Source: a virus. From it: a stretch of 12,686 nucleotides of DNA. This document shows positions 3,160-11,995 of this stretch, piece by piece; the stretch's first letter is position 1; each line of letters opens with the position of its first letter. The position numbers were made by a program, and so were the translations under genes. The stretch lies in the UHGV virus genome UHGV-0141872, one strand, 5' to 3'. Under the pieces are notes generated by a model. It saw only the letters and a program-made list of their open reading frames with translations. It did not search any database and was not told the DNA's origin.

Positions 3160-3459
3160 TTACTCAGTAACTACCGCACCTTCCGGTAATTCCATACCGG
3201 CAAATACCGGACAACCAGGATGACGCTCATCTTCTGTTGCTTCCAGCATTGACTGACCAAACCACTCCGTCGTGGCGCGACCATCAGCTGCTTTGTAGTG
3301 GATCAGGTACTGGTTTTCACCATCCGCATACTGCGCGCGGGCTTTAATCTCACCCCATTCATCACTGATGCGCATCTCCACCAGTTGAGACAACTCAAAC
3401 TTAAACGGAGCAGCATCAGCACCAATTACAAACGGTTTGTTTTCTGTTTTTTTCATCAT
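3160..3459 (-). CDS. Hypothetical acidic protein, ~99 aa (MMKKTENKPFVIGADAAPFKFELSQLVEMRISDEW...)
   Basis: The ORF-track frame starts at ATG 3507 with no SD; the internal ATG-ATG at 3459/3456 is preceded by CAGGAGACG (strong SD), so the shorter form is preferred. No family recognised. Confidence 0.55.
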   Translation of the reverse strand: MMKKTENKPFVIGADAAPFKFELSQLVEMRISDEWGEIKARAQYADGENQYLIHYKAADGRATTEWFGQSMLEATEDERHPGCPVFAGMELPEGAVVTE

Positions 3460-3630: not shown

Positions 3631-3813
3631 TCAGTTCTGCAGACACTGCCGAACATCGTCGACAATTTCACAGACCTGAGAAGCTGTATCGAAAAGCTGG
3701 CGCGCTTTATCCAGGCTGACGCATCCCACCAGGAAAAAAGGCACCAGTATCGCTACCAGTGCCCATTTCACCGCCGCTCGCGGCATTCTGTGTGTCCAGT
3801 GTTTTCTGCTCAT
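3631..3813 (-). CDS. Small putative lipoprotein, 60 aa (signal peptide plus lipobox LVGC, ~27-aa mature part with 3 Cys); possible spanin-like or exclusion lipoprotein
   Basis: MSRKHWTHRMPRAAVKWALVAILVPFFLVGCVSLDKARQLFDTASQVCEIVDDVRQCLQN: positively charged n-region, hydrophobic core, L-V-G-C lipobox. ATG at 3813 preceded by CAGGTGGGTT. The ORF-track version starting at 3885 (inside the endolysin gene) has no SD. Confidence 0.4.
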   Translation of the reverse strand: MSRKHWTHRMPRAAVKWALVAILVPFFLVGCVSLDKARQLFDTASQVCEIVDDVRQCLQN

Positions 3814-3827
3814 AACCCACCTGGTTA

Positions 3828-4205
3828 TCAGCGTTTCAACTGAAAATGAGGTCCGTCTTTCAGTGTTTTCCAGTCGCCGCCCCATTCGATGGCAGTTCCC
3901 AGCTCTGCGGCAGCCTGCTTAAATGCCTGCGCGATTTTCTCGTACAGAGGCCAGTCCCATGACACCTGGCTGCCAATGTAGGCCACAACATCCACCGCAT
4001 CACCGGTCAGGTGGCGGCTGTTCATGGTCTGGCTTTTCCCTTCCGCGACCAGCTGTTTCTGGCGTTCTTTCGTGCGCAGCCCTTCCGTAATACCGAAATC
4101 AACCTCCGTCAGTTCAAGGGCGCGGCGAACGACAGCAACCAGCTGTGGTCTGACACCCTCCAGATTTTTCTCGCTCCGGCGGCTGAATCTGAATTTACCC
4201 GACAT
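3828..4205 (-). CDS. Endolysin, peptidase M15 family (VanY-like L-alanyl-D-glutamate / D-Ala-D-Ala peptidase type)
   Basis: Zn-peptidase M15 motifs SRHLTGDAVDV and DGPHFQL. ATG at 4205 preceded by GAGGTG; the ORF-track start at 4211 is GTG and overlaps the upstream stop. Follows two membrane-protein genes with overlapping stops and starts. Confidence 0.8.
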   Translation of the reverse strand: MSGKFRFSRRSEKNLEGVRPQLVAVVRRALELTEVDFGITEGLRTKERQKQLVAEGKSQTMNSRHLTGDAVDVVAYIGSQVSWDWPLYEKIAQAFKQAAAELGTAIEWGGDWKTLKDGPHFQLKR

Positions 4206-4207
4206 AT

Positions 4208-4483
4208 TCACCTCAACAATGGAAAGATTCTTGTGACGTTCCCGCGTGCGCGTATCACCAGCACGCAGAACAGCAGATTAAAAAACACCTCCAGCCAGCC
4301 CGTTGCTAACGGGCGACCACACAGATAGCTGAGGGGGGCAAAGGCATACAGCAGCATCAGCAGCCAGGCCAGCCATGACATCAGCGGTTTGTGTCTGGAG
4401 TCACGACGACGATAAAAAAAGAGCGTCAGCACGATAACCGTGCATAACGCCACATTCAGCAATCCGGGAAGGTTACTTAACAT
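4208..4483 (-). CDS. Small membrane protein, 91 aa, about 3 predicted TM segments; holin/antiholin-like lysis accessory protein
   Basis: Strong SD GGAGGAGG 5 nt before ATG at 4483. Start overlaps the stop of the upstream putative holin and its own stop overlaps the endolysin start (translational coupling). Hydrophobic segments LLNVALCTVIVLTLFF, LMSWLAWLLMLLYAFAPLSYL, WLEVFFNLLFCVLVI. Confidence 0.55.
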   Translation of the reverse strand: MLSNLPGLLNVALCTVIVLTLFFYRRRDSRHKPLMSWLAWLLMLLYAFAPLSYLCGRPLATGWLEVFFNLLFCVLVIRARGNVTRIFPLLR

Positions 4484-4865
4484 TACCGCCTCCTCCGCCC
4501 CGCAGGCGCGAGAACAGGCCAGACACCAGTGATGCGATATCCTGCTGGTGGATGAATGACATAATCTTTACAGACACCAGCGATACCAGCACCGCACACA
4601 ATGCATCTGCAGATGTGCCGTCATAACCAGTTTTTGATGCCACCCAGGCTGAAAGCAAACGCGCACCCAGCACGCCGACGATAAATGACACAAGAAAATG
4701 TGCCGCCACCCGCCATGCTGAAAGCGCCTGCGGTATCGTTGCAACAAACAACGCCCCCGCAAATGCGCCAAACACAATCCCGAAATCCGTTCCGGTAAAC
4801 AGCCCGAAAACAGTCGCCCCACCGAGCGCAGCAGCTGTGCCGGAACCGGATAAGGGTTCAGACAT
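4473..4865 (-). CDS. Putative holin / lysis membrane protein, 130 aa, Gly-rich TM segments
   Basis: ATG at 4865 preceded by CAGGAGAAAAAGT (SD); the ORF-track start at 4922 is GTG inside a terminator hairpin and is unlikely. Multiple hydrophobic Gly/Ala-rich segments; first gene of the lysis cassette. Holin call is by position and hydropathy only. Confidence 0.5.
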   Translation of the reverse strand: MSEPLSGSGTAAALGGATVFGLFTGTDFGIVFGAFAGALFVATIPQALSAWRVAAHFLVSFIVGVLGARLLSAWVASKTGYDGTSADALCAVLVSLVSVKIMSFIHQQDIASLVSGLFSRLRGGGGGNVK

Positions 4866-4908
4866 ACTTTTTCTCCTGTAAATTAAAAAAGGCCACCAGC
4901 GGCCCCCC

Positions 4909-4957
4909 AAAAAAAACACCACACCAAAGACATCCGCAGATGCCTTTGTGTGGTGTT
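4909..4957 (-). terminator. Strong rho-independent terminator about 45 nt upstream of the holin start
   Basis: Minus strand reads AACACCACACAAAGG-catctgcggatg-TCTTTGGTGTGGTGTT followed by TTTTTTTT (about 14-bp stem with one bulge, U8 tract). A weaker GGCC...GGCC hairpin plus T-run follows at 4885-4904. Confidence 0.6.
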
Positions 4958-4994
4958 ATTCAGTTTTGATATGTATGGGACGTGGAGCGAATAC

Positions 4995-5049
4995 AAAAAA
5001 GGCCTGCCGGAGCAGACCTCAAAAAAAAGCCAGCACTGGGGGGGCTGGC
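4995..5049 (-). terminator. Tandem pair of rho-independent terminator hairpins
   Basis: Minus strand: GCCAGC-cccccagt-GCTGGC + TTTTTTTT (5021-5049), then GGUCUGC-uccg-GCAGGCC + TTTTTTGT (4995-5018). Confidence 0.5.
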
Positions 5050-5665
5050 AGGAAAGCAAACGTGCTTATCGGATTTTCAAAAAAAGAATATTACCTTTGC
5101 GTTAATCATCCTGGCCTTCCGAAGCACATTTCTCAACTGAAAACGGGTATTTTCAGATTTCGTTATCTGTCATATTGACAGGCCCCACTTCTCCGGGGTA
5201 GTGAAGTAAGTGGCGTTTGCTTCCTGTAAATGCCCGAGAGTTATCCATGATCTCTTGTATTAGGCATTCCTCAGTGGACTAATTTCGGAGTTATCATCCT
5301 GTTCAATTTCATCCAGGATCCCCTACTTAATAAGTTCATCATTCTTCAGGTGGCAGTTTCTTTCAGCCAGCCGTGCAAGCAACAGCACATTCTTGTCGGG
5401 CTCAGAATAACTCCTGCAAATGCAACAATGATGACCGTAGCACCAATAACCTTGAGCTGCCCGCATCCGTAAAAAGCGAAGGCCCCAAATTACCAGAATA
5501 AAACTGAGCAGATATCCGACCTTCGTTACCGCATGGACTTCATTGTCTCATACACCAGGAGCAGCAAATTGCAAAGGATGAAGCACGCCCCATGAAGATT
5601 CTCCCAAAACTATAATTGTAAAAACCAAAGTAGAGGAAGCGAACACTTGCAAACCCGAACGTTGA

Positions 5666-5693
5666 ATAAAAAAAACCGCCTGGAGCGGCGGTT
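5666..5693 (-). terminator. Rho-independent terminator downstream of the tRNA pair
   Basis: Minus strand: AACCGCC-gctcca-GGCGGTT followed by TTTTTTTTATT. Confidence 0.5.
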
Positions 5694-6046
5694 AATGGCA
5701 TATAAAAACGCATGATTTAATTGTATTCAGAAGTGTCGGGTACCTCCCGAAGCATCCAGCCCCACATGGATACTGTGGTTTCCCGCTAAACCGACTCTTT
5801 AAACCACCCTCGCACTGAGGAACACCTCTGTAGTGTTTTTACAACACCGGGATAGTGCATCATCAGCCCTGCCAGGAAATACTAAATCTCCACCGATAAT
5901 GCACTATTCCATTGTTGTAAAAAATCAGCACTGAGGCTATAACCGACCTCAAACAATAGCCTGAGGACCAAAGATGTCTTAAAACAACCTGCCCCCACGT
6001 AAAAAAACACGCCAGTGCTGTATAATTCGTGTTGCCAGAATAATGA

Positions 6047-6121
<75 letters not shown>

Positions 6122-6124
6122 ATA

Positions 6125-6200
<76 letters not shown>

Positions 6201-6365
6201 ATTGGTTCCTCAGGTGTGGATGAGATGCCCGGATACATAAATTACCCTCCCTTGGAACCGATGAAGAATAATAATGAATTTCGTTCTTGTTTCAATACAA
6301 ACAATGTCAGGTATTTAAAACATAATTATACAATATTATAAAAATTAAAAAGTTCGCAAAAAAAG

Positions 6366-11628: not shown

Positions 11629-11784
11629 TTACTCCTCAGGTTCGTAAGCTGTGAAGACAGCGACCTCCGTCTGGCCGGTTCAGATTCGTACCTCGCAGAG
11701 GTCTTTCCTCGTTACCAGTGCCGTCACTATGACGGTTAAACAGATGACGATCAGGGCGATTAACATCGCCTTTTGCTGCTTCAT
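11629..11784 (-). pseudogene. hokD: hok-family type I toxin gene (HokD/RelF-like) interrupted by an in-frame TGA at codon 35
   Basis: Translation MKQQKAMLIALIVICLTVIVTALVTRKDLCEVRI*TGQTEVAVFTAYEPEE matches my recollection of E. coli HokD (51 aa) except that the Arg codon is TGA (11682..11680). SD AAGGAG lies 9 nt upstream of ATG at 11784. Confidence 0.6.
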
Positions 11785-11900
11785 AGCCTGCTTCTCCTTG
11801 CCTTTCGGCACGTAAGAGGCTAACCTACATGTGTCTAGCATGAAATTGGCCTCAGATTAATGTTAAGCGTCTTGCAGGACGCGTAATGTTAACTGGGGCT
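11785..11900. promoter_or_regulatory. hok mRNA leader / mok-overlap region; expected location of the antisense Sok RNA and its promoter (plus strand)
   Basis: Inferred from the canonical hok/sok architecture (antisense RNA complementary to the leader of the toxin mRNA). An in-frame upstream ATG (MLDTCRLASYVPKGKEKQA...) is present in the leader. Exact Sok boundaries cannot be set from sequence alone. Confidence 0.3.
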
Positions 11901-11995
11901 TTTCTCTATCTGCCGTTGGTGTTCATGCCCGAGGCAGATAGCCTCAAGCACCCGCAGCCATTCTACTTAACTACCGCTACCTCGCCAATATGAAA

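What the first reader, a model, noticed from the sequence alone, without database searches (positions are those of the whole stretch)
3631..4865. Lysis cassette with two coupled membrane proteins, an M15 peptidase endolysin and no recognisable Rz/Rz1 spanin pair
The cassette is holin-like (130 aa), then a 91-aa 3-TM protein with a very strong SD and overlapping stop/start on both sides, then an M15 zinc-peptidase endolysin (not a lysozyme or transglycosylase), then only a 60-aa lipoprotein with a 27-residue Cys-rich mature part. There is no room for a canonical i-spanin (about 150 aa) with an embedded o-spanin. Either outer-membrane disruption uses an unusual mechanism (a miniature lipoprotein spanin or none), or the lipoprotein has another role such as exclusion.
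Basis: partly seen in the sequence, partly recalled or inferred. Interest (0 to 1): 0.45.

Follow-up and report, generated by a model that had tools for sequence, protein, structure and literature searches.

The report
Phage lysis cassette with lone lipoprotein
This is the lysis gene set of a phiP27-like E. coli prophage, in which a tiny outer-membrane lipoprotein sits exactly where other phages keep their two-part membrane-fusing "spanin", with no inner-membrane partner anywhere, so it may break the outer membrane in a way not yet described.

Summary
On the minus strand, 3631-4865 encodes a 130-aa holin (Phage_holin_8), a 91-aa 3-TM holin-family protein (Phage_holin_3_7), a 125-aa M15 L-Ala-D-Glu endopeptidase (ChiX/T5-Lys-like) and a 60-aa prolipoprotein. 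Its mature part is 30 aa, not 27. The window is a phiP27-like prophage.

The lipoprotein is not new. Kongari et al. 2018 listed it as the phiP27 o-spanin, paired with a 64-aa TTG-start "i-spanin". That ORF lies in a phiP27-specific insertion that this window lacks, and it is antisense to a conserved 90-aa gene. I judge it a false call.

In about 106 distinct related loci the lipoprotein is always the last lysis gene, behind two holin systems and four endolysin types. No conserved i-spanin-like ORF occurs on either side. No second lipoprotein exists in the whole prophage. In relatives it follows the same small TM gene that precedes Rz/Rz1 in Stx phages. In the one lineage that has Rz/Rz1, it is a pseudogene. 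It is under purifying selection (pN/pS 0.18).

Best reading: a partner-less outer-membrane lysis factor in the spanin slot. The mechanism is untested. Novelty: a new variant of a known kind. Interest: moderate to high.

The parts
4473..4865 (-). Holin-family gene 1 (130 aa, 3-4 hydrophobic segments; SD AGGAG)
   Evidence: Pfam Phage_holin_8 at 80.9 bits (cut-off 26.4); phrog_198 holin. Hydropathy. RefSeq 'putative holin' WP_001362368 in L002.
4208..4483 (-). Holin-family gene 2 (91 aa, 3 TMDs, net charge +8). Its start overlaps gene 1 by 11 nt and its SD is GGAGGAGG. It is probably the second half of a two-gene holin or holin/antiholin module.
   Evidence: Pfam Phage_holin_3_7 at 78.1 bits; phrog_217 holin. 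It is always paired with gene 1 in relatives, including divergent pairs in L097 and L103.
3828..4205 (-). Cytoplasmic endolysin: M15 zinc L-alanyl-D-glutamate endopeptidase (125 aa; His65-x6-Asp72 and His120; no signal peptide or TMD)
   Evidence: Pfam Peptidase_M15_4; phrog_465 at E 1e-75. PDB relatives: 23ri, 8q2g, ChiX 5opz, T5 Lys 2mxz.
3631..3813 (-). 60-aa prolipoprotein. The signal peptide is residues 1-30 (nt 3724-3813), the lipobox is LVGC, and Cys31 is at 3721-3723. The mature peptide is 30 aa (CVSLDKARQLFDTASQVCEIVDDVRQCLQN), predicted helical, net charge -2, no Pro, with conserved Cys48 and Cys57. This is the candidate outer-membrane lysis factor.
   Evidence: phrog_7528 (function unknown) is the only family hit. 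pN/pS is 0.18. Invariant C31, C48 and C57. AF2 predicts one helix over residues 12-59, pLDDT 69. It is identical to the o-spanin that Kongari et al. listed for phiP27.
3729..3764 (-). Terminator-like hairpin (11 bp, loop GCGA) followed by a U-run, inside the signal-peptide coding region
   Evidence: RNA MFE -21.9 kcal/mol, z -3.6. A stable hairpin is kept in the 12 unique variants printed as structures; the 13th, the L093 type, has a weaker, different hairpin. Median MFE over all 36 unique variants is -19.75 kcal/mol, and the stem changes seen preserve pairing.
4887..5693 (-). Three terminator-like hairpins (5693-5674, 5020-4999, 4908-4887) in the ORF-free leader upstream of the holin. This fits a Q-antiterminated late transcript.
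   Evidence: An antiterminator Q gene lies upstream in L002/L092.

Best explanation
The region is the late lysis cassette of a phiP27-like lambdoid/Mu-tailed prophage of E. coli, read on the minus strand from a Q-antiterminated late transcript.

Proposed sequence of events:
1. The two translationally coupled holin-family proteins (130 aa and 91 aa) permeabilise the inner membrane.
2. This lets the signal-less M15 L-Ala-D-Glu endopeptidase reach and cut the peptidoglycan.
3. The fourth gene makes a 60-aa prolipoprotein. [quoted passage not shown]
4. This lipoprotein occupies the slot that Rz/Rz1 spanins fill in other lambdoid phages. It most likely carries out or enables the last step, breaking the outer membrane, without any phage-encoded inner-membrane (i-spanin) partner.

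Shown here: the gene identities; the lipoprotein features; purifying selection; the invariable position at the end of the cassette behind different holins and endolysins; the absence of any i-spanin or second lipoprotein; positional replacement of Rz/Rz1; and decay of the gene where Rz/Rz1 is present.

Inferred: that the lipoprotein acts on the outer membrane.

Unknown: the physical mechanism. My preferred guess is a partner-less perturbation of the outer membrane, comparable to the 28-aa colicin lysis lipoproteins that activate outer-membrane phospholipase A. The unusually conserved signal peptide may play a part.
For: Gene identities.

Window identity: 92% identical to phiP27 and 96.5% to an E. 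coli ST2350 prophage.

The lipoprotein is a real, selected gene. pN/pS is 0.18, against 0.11-0.34 for its neighbours. Cys31, Cys48 and Cys57 are invariant. It is present in 360 of 5426 complete E. coli genomes, and also in Salmonella, Citrobacter and Lelliottia.

Position in the cassette. In 81 loci of the first set it always follows hol130 and hol91, and in 35 of them it follows the M15 endolysin directly, as in the window. In divergent relatives it directly abuts the endolysin, with a 0-16 nt gap, behind a different holin family (Phage_holin_3_1). It follows M15a, M15b, GH108+PG_binding_3 or CHAP endolysins.

No partner found. No recurrent ORF with an N-terminal TMD lies within -1200 to +1000 nt in 106 unique loci, whereas GER2 Rz is found by the same scan. 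No other lipoprotein of Rz1 type occurs in any locus or in the whole prophage.

The slot is the spanin slot. The small TM gene (phrog_4493) is followed, after stop plus 1 nt, by the lipoprotein in relatives, and by Rz/Rz1 in GER2 and O157/O104 prophages. bor follows the lipoprotein on the opposite strand in about 9 of the fetched loci, which I recall is also its place after Rz in lambda.

Decay where Rz/Rz1 is present. In GER2 and O104:H4 C227-11, which carry Rz/Rz1, the lipoprotein copy has three in-frame stops.

Literature. Rz is reported in 277 of 279 Stx phages, and the two phiP27-like cluster C phages appear to be the exceptions (PMC8136144). Small partner-less lipoproteins that permeabilise the outer membrane exist: colicin lysis proteins have a 19-aa signal peptide, a 28-aa mature part and activate phospholipase A (PMC2896534).
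Against: - There is no experiment on this protein.
- A 30-residue helix (about 4.5 nm) cannot span the periplasm, so it cannot work like a spanin by bridging the membranes.
- The peptide is anionic, unlike the only known spanin-independent factor, disruptin.
- It has no sequence similarity to colicin lysis proteins: no Pfam hit even at E<=10.
- Variable insertions (251-976 nt, some carrying antisense morons, an HNH or a KilA-N gene) separate it from the endolysin in many relatives. Mosaic breakpoints flank it on both sides. This is also how morons behave.
- The pseudogene evidence rests on a single lineage.
- A host inner-membrane partner cannot be excluded.
- The small TM ORFs next to it in some relatives might be partners that this prophage has lost.
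Confidence: 0.55

Rival explanations
1. It is the o-subunit of an ordinary two-component spanin, as catalogued by Kongari et al. 2018. The inner-membrane subunit exists but is unrecognised. Candidates are a very short i-spanin, one of the holin-family proteins, the small TM proteins seen in relatives, or a host protein.
For: - Kongari et al. list phiP27 as a 'separated' 2CS with a 64-aa i-spanin and a 51-aa o-spanin, 62 periplasmic residues in all.
- The two conserved periplasmic Cys resemble the disulfide-forming Cys of o-spanins such as T4 PseT.2.
- Some relatives carry a 57-aa or 60-aa TM ORF whose stop abuts the lipoprotein start.
Against: - The 64-aa ORF (L001 4833-5027, TTG start) lies in an insertion found only in phiP27 and a few relatives. 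It is absent from the window and from 35 of 81 loci.
- It has no PHROG or Pfam hit. It is antisense to a 90-aa ORF of phrog_36812 that stays open at 46% identity, with third-position-biased changes (37/26/54). The sense ORF shrinks to 36 aa in L042.
- The small TM ORFs have a C-terminal TMD and essentially no periplasmic tail. They also precede genuine Rz in other phages.
- Neither holin system nor any endolysin type is common to all lipoprotein-bearing cassettes.
- No N-terminal-TMD ORF recurs in 106 loci.
Confidence: 0.15
2. It is a moron-type accessory lipoprotein with no role in lysis, parked at the recombination-prone end of the lysis module. Its role could be superinfection exclusion by masking a receptor, as with Cor or Llp, or a host-fitness factor, as with Bor.
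For: - The gene is a separate mosaic unit, with homology breakpoints just before its start and 20-120 nt after its stop in most loci.
- The junction with the endolysin is an insertion hot spot for morons.
- Small phage lipoproteins with such roles are known (my own knowledge).
- It has a terminator-like hairpin of its own.
Against: - No promoter-like site lies between the endolysin and the gene. In the window and in divergent relatives it is packed 0-16 nt behind the endolysin.
- It travels with lysis genes, while the packaging and tail modules downstream vary.
- It never co-occurs intact with Rz/Rz1, and it is decayed where Rz/Rz1 is present.
- No PADLOC hit.
- bor, a true moron, is found next to it as a separate, oppositely oriented gene.
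Confidence: 0.17
3. These phages need no dedicated outer-membrane step. The lipoprotein is dispensable for lysis or only modulates its timing or the endolysin, and the outer membrane fails mechanically after the stem peptides are cut.
For: - About 13% of phages of Gram-negative hosts have no recognisable spanin (91 of 677).
- Salmonella T10SS cassettes work without spanins.
- ChiY and ChiZ are individually dispensable for chitinase secretion next to the homologous ChiX.
Against: - Strong purifying selection and conservation across four genera.
- Strict retention at the end of otherwise shuffled lysis cassettes.
- By my own knowledge of the field, in lambda the outer membrane does not fail on its own without spanins when divalent cations are present.
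Confidence: 0.08

Closest known systems
phiP27 'o-spanin' (Kongari et al. 2018, BMC Bioinformatics 19:326; singleton o-spanin family, 'separated' architecture)
   Same: It is the same protein family, 92% identical. The 30-aa helical mature domain matches their table entry (SOS 30 residues, 83% helix).
   Different: They start it at Met10 (51 aa), but Met10 is not conserved across the family (V, I, T or A in homologues), whereas Met1 is present in all 51 unique alleles. They pair it with a 64-aa i-spanin, which I find to be an antisense artefact that is absent here.
Lambda Rz/Rz1 and other two-component spanins
   Same: Last position in the lysis cassette. Outer-membrane lipoprotein with conserved periplasmic Cys. 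Same slot after the phrog_4493 small TM gene. bor follows in some relatives.
   Different: There is no i-spanin. The mature part is 30 aa, helical and Pro-free, whereas Rz1 is 40 aa, Pro-rich and unstructured. It is too short to bridge the periplasm.
Serratia marcescens chiWXYZ (T10SS; ChiW holin, ChiX endopeptidase, ChiY lipoprotein, ChiZ i-spanin-like)
   Same: The endolysin matches ChiX at E 1e-42. Divergent relatives use a ChiW-type Phage_holin_3_1 holin. A lipoprotein gene directly follows the endopeptidase, as ChiY does.
   Different: No ChiZ-like gene follows the lipoprotein. No homology to anything outside the small family was detected: 23 hits among 1.84 billion representatives. The ChiY sequence itself was not compared.
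Colicin lysis proteins / bacteriocin release proteins
   Same: Tiny prolipoprotein, about 28-30 aa when mature, sorted to the outer membrane, acting without an inner-membrane partner (PMC2896534). By my own recollection, BRP signal peptides are stable and functional. Here the signal peptide is more conserved than the mature part.
   Different: No sequence similarity (no Lysis_col hit). The context is a phage late operon. The mature part is helical and Cys-containing. Dependence on OmpLA is untested.
Unimolecular spanin (T1 gp11) and disruptin (phiKT gp28)
   Same: A single-gene solution to the outer-membrane step in phages that lack Rz/Rz1.
   Different: The u-spanin has a C-terminal TMD and a long beta-rich periplasmic domain. 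Disruptin is a cationic, non-lipidated peptide. This protein has no C-terminal TMD and a net charge of -2.

Membership tests
Two-component spanin (i-spanin + o-spanin) | o-subunit: lipoprotein signal with lipobox Cys and no inner-membrane retention residue at +2 | tested here: met
   LVG-C31, Val at +2, basic n-region, hydrophobic h-region. Cys31 is invariant.
Two-component spanin (i-spanin + o-spanin) | i-subunit: adjacent, overlapping or embedding gene for a type II inner-membrane protein with an N-terminal TMD and a periplasmic, usually coiled-coil, domain | tested here: not met
   None in the window or the whole prophage. None recurrent within -1200/+1000 nt in 106 loci, with GER2 Rz as positive control. 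The published phiP27 candidate is absent here and is antisense to a conserved gene.
Two-component spanin (i-spanin + o-spanin) | Combined periplasmic length sufficient to link the inner and outer membranes | tested here: not met
   There are only 30 mature residues. Even the published pair (62 residues) was the shortest of 528 systems.
Two-component spanin (i-spanin + o-spanin) | Periplasmic Cys residues that form intermolecular disulfides | tested here: inconclusive
   Cys48 and Cys57 are conserved, with spacing of 9-10. Bond formation cannot be tested here.
Two-component spanin (i-spanin + o-spanin) | Required for outer-membrane disruption (spherical-cell arrest when absent) | not testable with these tools
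   Needs genetics and microscopy.
Unimolecular spanin (T1 gp11 type) | N-terminal lipoprotein signal plus a C-terminal transmembrane domain in one polypeptide | tested here: not met
   The only hydrophobic segment is the signal peptide. The C-terminus is polar.
Disruptin (phiKT gp28 type) | Small cationic amphipathic peptide without a lipid anchor | tested here: not met
   The mature peptide has 3 K/R against 5 D/E, and it carries a lipobox.
Colicin lysis protein / BRP (Pfam Lysis_col) | Sequence membership in the family | tested here: not met
   No Pfam hit for the lipoprotein at E<=10. No NCBIfam hit.
Colicin lysis protein / BRP (Pfam Lysis_col) | Small outer-membrane lipoprotein (about 28 aa mature) that permeabilises the envelope through phospholipase A | not testable with these tools
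   The size and lipoprotein architecture match. OmpLA dependence needs a pldA mutant.
Phage holins (Phage_holin_8; Phage_holin_3_7) | Pfam model above the gathering score, multiple TMDs, position upstream of the endolysin | tested here: met
   80.9 and 78.1 bits against cut-offs of 26.4 and 25.4. Hydropathy. Hole formation itself was not tested.
M15 (LAS-type) L-alanyl-D-glutamate endopeptidase endolysins | Peptidase_M15 fold with His-x6-Asp and C-terminal His zinc ligands, and homology to characterised enzymes | tested here: met
   Pfam Peptidase_M15_4 at 48 bits. PDB 8q2g, 5opz and 2mxz at E 1e-44 to 1e-24. H65-x6-D72 and H120 are read from the sequence.

The most novel reading that the evidence does not exclude
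The 60-aa protein defines a new class of phage outer-membrane disruptor. It would be a lipoprotein-only 'solo o-spanin' that needs no inner-membrane subunit and no C-terminal anchor.

Its long, basic signal peptide is more conserved than the mature part: 71% identity in the h-region against 34% in the mature peptide. It may itself take part, either as a stable membrane-active peptide as in bacteriocin release proteins, or as an uncleaved inner-membrane-anchored isoform that pairs through the Cys residues with the outer-membrane form.
Probability: 0.35. Interest if true: 0.75.

Novelty: new variant of a known kind. Interest (0 to 1): 0.55.

Why it matters
About one phage in seven that infects Gram-negative bacteria has no recognisable spanin, and only one alternative (disruptin) has been worked out.

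This family offers a genetically simple test case in E. coli. It is a 30-residue lipopeptide that replaces Rz/Rz1 in an otherwise ordinary lambdoid cassette. It is present in about 7% of complete E. coli genomes, including strain W and the Stx2e phage phiP27.

If it breaks the outer membrane on its own, it adds a new mechanism and a very small tool for controlled envelope permeabilisation. The analysis also indicates that the phiP27 entry in the reference spanin catalogue, and annotation derived from it, needs correcting.

Tried and rejected
- **Rz/Rz1 in alternative frames.** I scanned all start codons in six frames of the window and of a 50-kb stretch covering the ST2350 prophage. Nothing was found.
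- **The published phiP27 i-spanin.** I located it (L001 4833-5027) and rejected it as an antisense artefact.
- **Small TM ORFs (phrog_4493, 1115, 4906) as i-spanins.** Rejected because the TMD is C-terminal, there is no periplasmic domain, they are absent from the window, and they also precede genuine Rz.
- **The downstream 98-aa gene (phrog_1935) as a partner.** It has no TMD or signal peptide, is acidic, and is variably present.
- **Remote homology of the lipoprotein.** Pfam, NCBIfam, PADLOC and PDB profile searches gave nothing. A profile search of 1.84 billion representatives returned only 23 hits: family members and fragments, plus three longer proteins with partial matches.
- **AlphaFold2.** It gave only a single helix at moderate confidence (pLDDT 69), which is not informative about function. 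I therefore ran no fold search.
- **Species-representative genomes.** The scan with alignment A2 failed because there was no conserved block. With A1 it gave 3 loci.
- **The ChiY sequence** could not be fetched for a direct comparison.
Full report
**What is there.** The finding lies on the minus strand. Four genes are packed head to tail.

- **Gene 1, 4473-4865 (130 aa).** It matches Pfam Phage_holin_8 (E 1e-22) and phrog_198 'holin'.
- **Gene 2, 4208-4483 (91 aa).** It has three hydrophobic segments and a net charge of +8. It matches Phage_holin_3_7 (E 5e-22) and phrog_217 'holin'. Its ATG overlaps gene 1 by 11 nt behind a GGAGGAGG Shine-Dalgarno sequence. Its TGA overlaps a GTG and lies 2 nt before the ATG of the next gene.
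- **Gene 3, 3828-4205 (125 aa).** It is a Peptidase_M15_4 protein (phrog_465, E 1e-75) with no signal peptide or TMD. Its closest solved relatives are L-alanyl-D-glutamate endopeptidases: 23ri and 8q2g at E 1e-44, Serratia ChiX 5opz at 1e-42 and T5 Lys 2mxz at 7e-24. His65-x6-Asp72 and His120 are present in the sequence.
- **Gene 4, 3631-3813.** It starts 14 nt after the endolysin stop, behind AGGTGG, and encodes MSRKHWTHRMPRAAVKWALVAILVPFFLVG|CVSLDKARQLFDTASQVCEIVDDVRQCLQN. This is a 30-residue signal peptide with the lipobox LVGC, Val at +2 (outer-membrane sorting), and a 30-residue mature part with three Cys.

**Where it comes from.** The stretch is 92% identical to the Stx2e phage phiP27 and 96.5% identical to prophages in E. 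coli ST2350 and other strains. The surrounding genes are an antiterminator Q, a CPBP protease, a DNA methylase, tRNA-Thr and tRNA-Gly, then the cassette, then packaging genes and a Mu-like contractile tail. Three terminator-like hairpins precede the holin, as expected for a Q-dependent late operon. In phiP27 the stx2e genes sit in this leader.

**Is there a hidden spanin?** I enumerated every ATG/GTG/TTG-initiated ORF in all six frames of the window, and of 50 kb covering almost the whole ST2350 prophage.

- The only credible lipoprotein ORF is the 60-aa gene.
- No ORF with a single N-terminal TMD and a periplasmic tail lies near the cassette.
- The same filters recover both Rz and Rz1 in phage GER2, so the negative result is meaningful.

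**What the literature already says.** Kongari et al. 2018 (PMC6139136) list phiP27 as a 'separated' two-component spanin. Both subunits are singleton families, and the system has the shortest periplasmic length of all 528 systems, 62 residues. Their supplementary tables give an o-spanin of 51 aa with a 30-aa, 83%-helical periplasmic part, and an i-spanin of 64 aa at 20348-20542.

Mapped onto the phiP27 record, the o-spanin is this lipoprotein started at Met10. The i-spanin is a TTG-initiated ORF, L001 4833-5027. That ORF lies in a roughly 470-bp insertion between the endolysin and the lipoprotein. The window lacks this insertion, and so do 35 of 81 related loci. The ORF has no PHROG or Pfam match. 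The opposite strand carries a clean 90-aa ORF of phrog_36812. In a diverged copy of the insertion (L042) the antisense ORF stays open at 46% identity, with changes concentrated at third codon positions (37/26/54). The 'i-spanin' frame there shrinks to 36 aa. I conclude that the i-spanin call was a false positive.

Pinto et al. 2021 (PMC8136144) report Rz in 277 of 279 Stx phages. Their two-member cluster C, the phiP27-like stx2e phages, appears to account for the two exceptions.

**Is the lipoprotein a real gene?** Yes.

- Across 51 unique alleles, pN/pS is 0.18, similar to the endolysin (0.11) and the holins (0.24 and 0.34).
- Met1 is present in all 51 of these alleles. Met10 is replaced by V, I, T or A in other homologues.
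- Cys31, Cys48 and Cys57 never change in the close family.
- The gene occurs in 360 of 5426 complete E. coli genomes, at 568 places, and strain W is among them.
- It also occurs in Salmonella, Citrobacter braakii and Lelliottia.
- The family is nevertheless tiny. A profile search of 1.84 billion representative proteins gave 23 hits.
- Pfam, NCBIfam, PADLOC and PDB profile searches gave nothing. The only family hit is phrog_7528, of unknown function.

**Genomic context is the main evidence.** I examined about 170 fetched loci, roughly 106 of them distinct. The lipoprotein gene is always the last gene of a lysis cassette.

- The holin module is either the Phage_holin_8 + Phage_holin_3_7 pair, or a single Phage_holin_3_1 holin of the ChiW type.
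- The endolysin is one of two M15 subtypes, a GH108+PG_binding_3 muramidase, or a CHAP-domain enzyme.
- In the divergent relatives the lipoprotein abuts the endolysin, with a gap of 0-16 nt.
- No ORF with an N-terminal TMD recurs between -1200 and +1000 nt. This matters on both sides, because in Serratia chiWXYZ the lipoprotein ChiY precedes the i-spanin-like ChiZ.
- No other Rz1-type lipoprotein occurs in any locus.
- Downstream of the lipoprotein, homology to the window ends within 20-120 nt in 55 of 91 loci, and the packaging modules differ. The gene therefore travels with the lysis genes and not with the virion genes.

**It sits in the Rz/Rz1 slot.** Many relatives carry a 57-aa ORF with a C-terminal TMD (phrog_4493), whose stop is followed after one base by the lipoprotein ATG. 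In phage GER2, in the O104:H4 Stx2a prophage and, at about 84% identity, in O157 prophages, the same small gene is followed by Rz/Rz1. In GER2 and O104:H4 the annotated junction is again stop plus one base. In about nine of the fetched loci bor follows the lipoprotein on the opposite strand. From my own knowledge, bor follows Rz in the same way in lambda.

GER2 and O104:H4 C227-11 have Rz/Rz1 and also keep a copy of the lipoprotein gene 750 nt further on. That copy carries three in-frame stop codons. This is a single lineage, found in 43 genomes. It is nevertheless the only place where the two co-occur, and there the lipoprotein gene is dead.

**Properties of the mature peptide.**

- It is predicted to be helical. 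Jpred gives 83%, and AF2 gives one helix over residues 12-59 with pLDDT about 65-69.
- It contains no proline and has a net charge of -2.
- It is amphipathic, with a heptad-like hydrophobic seam (L4, A7, L10/F11, A14, V17/C18, V21, V24, L28).
- The two periplasmic Cys are 9 or 10 residues apart in different members. In a helix that spacing argues against an intramolecular bond and for intermolecular ones.
- At about 4.5 nm, the peptide cannot reach the inner membrane.

**An oddity.** Among divergent members, the signal peptide is more conserved than the mature part: 53% in the n-region, 71% in the h-region with the lipobox, and 34% in the mature part. The h-region coding sequence forms an 11-bp hairpin followed by a U-run (3764-3729; MFE -21.9 kcal/mol, z -3.6). 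Of the 13 unique variants printed as structures, 12 keep a stable hairpin with a T-rich tail, and the L093 type has a weaker, different one. The median MFE over all 36 unique variants is -19.75 kcal/mol, and the stem changes seen preserve pairing. Either the signal peptide has a function of its own, or an RNA or terminator element is embedded in it. I cannot tell which.

**How it most likely works.**

- The holin module and the endopeptidase behave as in any canonical holin-endolysin system. This is inferred from family membership.
- The lipoprotein is made late and lipidated at Cys31. [quoted passage not shown] This is inferred from the sequence rules.
- It provides the third step, outer-membrane disruption. 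This is inferred from its position, its mutual exclusivity with Rz/Rz1 and its retention across shuffled cassettes.
- No phage-encoded inner-membrane protein is common to all cassettes, so it probably acts alone or with a host factor.

The nearest mechanistic precedent for a tiny, partner-less outer-membrane lipoprotein that permeabilises the envelope is the colicin lysis proteins. These have a 19-aa signal peptide and a 28-aa mature part, and they activate phospholipase A (PMC2896534). There is no sequence similarity to them, and this step is a guess.

**Rivals.** In order of weight:
1. A moron lipoprotein with a non-lytic role.
2. A true two-component spanin with an unrecognised or host partner.
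3. No dedicated outer-membrane step at all.

**Verdict.** The protein itself was already catalogued. What is new is the evidence that it has no i-spanin and stands in for Rz/Rz1. That makes it a new variant of a known kind, and a cheap, direct experimental target.

Noticed in passing
window 3729-3764 (minus strand), inside the lipoprotein gene: A terminator-like hairpin (11 bp) followed by a U-run sits in the signal-peptide coding region (MFE -21.9, z -3.6). Of the 13 unique variants printed as structures, 12 keep a stable hairpin with a T-rich tail, with different loops and pair-preserving stem changes. One divergent member (L093) has a different, weaker hairpin at the same place. Its function is unknown.
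   Followed up: partly
window 3724-3813; alignment A2: The signal peptide is more conserved than the mature peptide among divergent family members: n-region 53%, h-region with lipobox 71%, mature part 34% pairwise identity. It is also unusually long (30 aa) and basic. This is atypical for signal peptides. It may reflect the embedded hairpin, or a function of the signal peptide itself.
   Followed up: partly
L001 (phiP27) 4771-5043 plus strand, and 4833-5027 minus strand: The ORF published as the phiP27 i-spanin (64 aa, TTG start) is antisense to a conserved 90-aa ORF (phrog_36812). It lies in an insertion of about 470 bp that is absent from the window. The reference spanin table entry for phiP27 appears to be wrong.
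   Followed up: yes
L058 5826-5999; L055 5662-5996; L096 3130-3282: Small tail-anchored TM ORFs (57/60 aa in phrog_4493/1115, and 44 aa in phrog_4906) abut the lipoprotein start in many relatives. The same 57-aa family abuts the Rz start in GER2, O104:H4 and O157 prophages. Their function is unknown and they are absent from the window.
   Followed up: partly
L096 4489-4668 (phage GER2); L174 2576-2790 (E. coli O104:H4 C227-11): An unannotated pseudogene copy of the lipoprotein, with three in-frame stops, lies downstream of Rz/Rz1 and an antisense heptose-phosphatase moron in the Stx2a prophage lineage. The arrangement is found in 43 complete E. coli genomes.
   Followed up: yes
window 4866-6365: A 1.5-kb leader holds no ORF of 80 aa or more. 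It carries tRNA-Thr and tRNA-Gly (6047-6200) and three terminator-like hairpins on the minus strand. This is the position occupied by stx2e (plus tRNA-Ile/Arg) in phiP27, and by TerB-like plus DUF3927 genes in other relatives.
   Followed up: partly
window 11779-11953 (minus strand): Rfam sok antitoxin RNA (115 bits) is present, which indicates a hok/sok type I toxin-antitoxin locus (hokD in the ST2350 annotation) in the early region of the prophage.
   Followed up: no
window 3160-3456 (minus strand): A 98-aa acidic protein (phrog_1935, function unknown, no TMD) follows the lipoprotein after a conserved spacer of about 175 nt in roughly 40% of relatives. Short unrelated soluble ORFs occupy this place in the others.
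   Followed up: partly
L011 (PP818812.1, 'Actinobacillus phage vB_Apl-pPE4'): A phage record labelled as infecting Actinobacillus pleuropneumoniae is about 90% identical at the DNA level to this E. coli prophage cassette. The lipoprotein gene there is unannotated. The host assignment looks doubtful.
   Followed up: no
junction at window 3814-3827, and the equivalent site in relatives: The 14-nt spacer between endolysin and lipoprotein is an insertion hot spot. Relatives carry inserts of 251-976 nt there. These hold an HNH/NUMOD4 homing endonuclease, a KilA-N or Bro-N protein, a 93-aa phrog_33497 protein, or antisense morons.
   Followed up: partly
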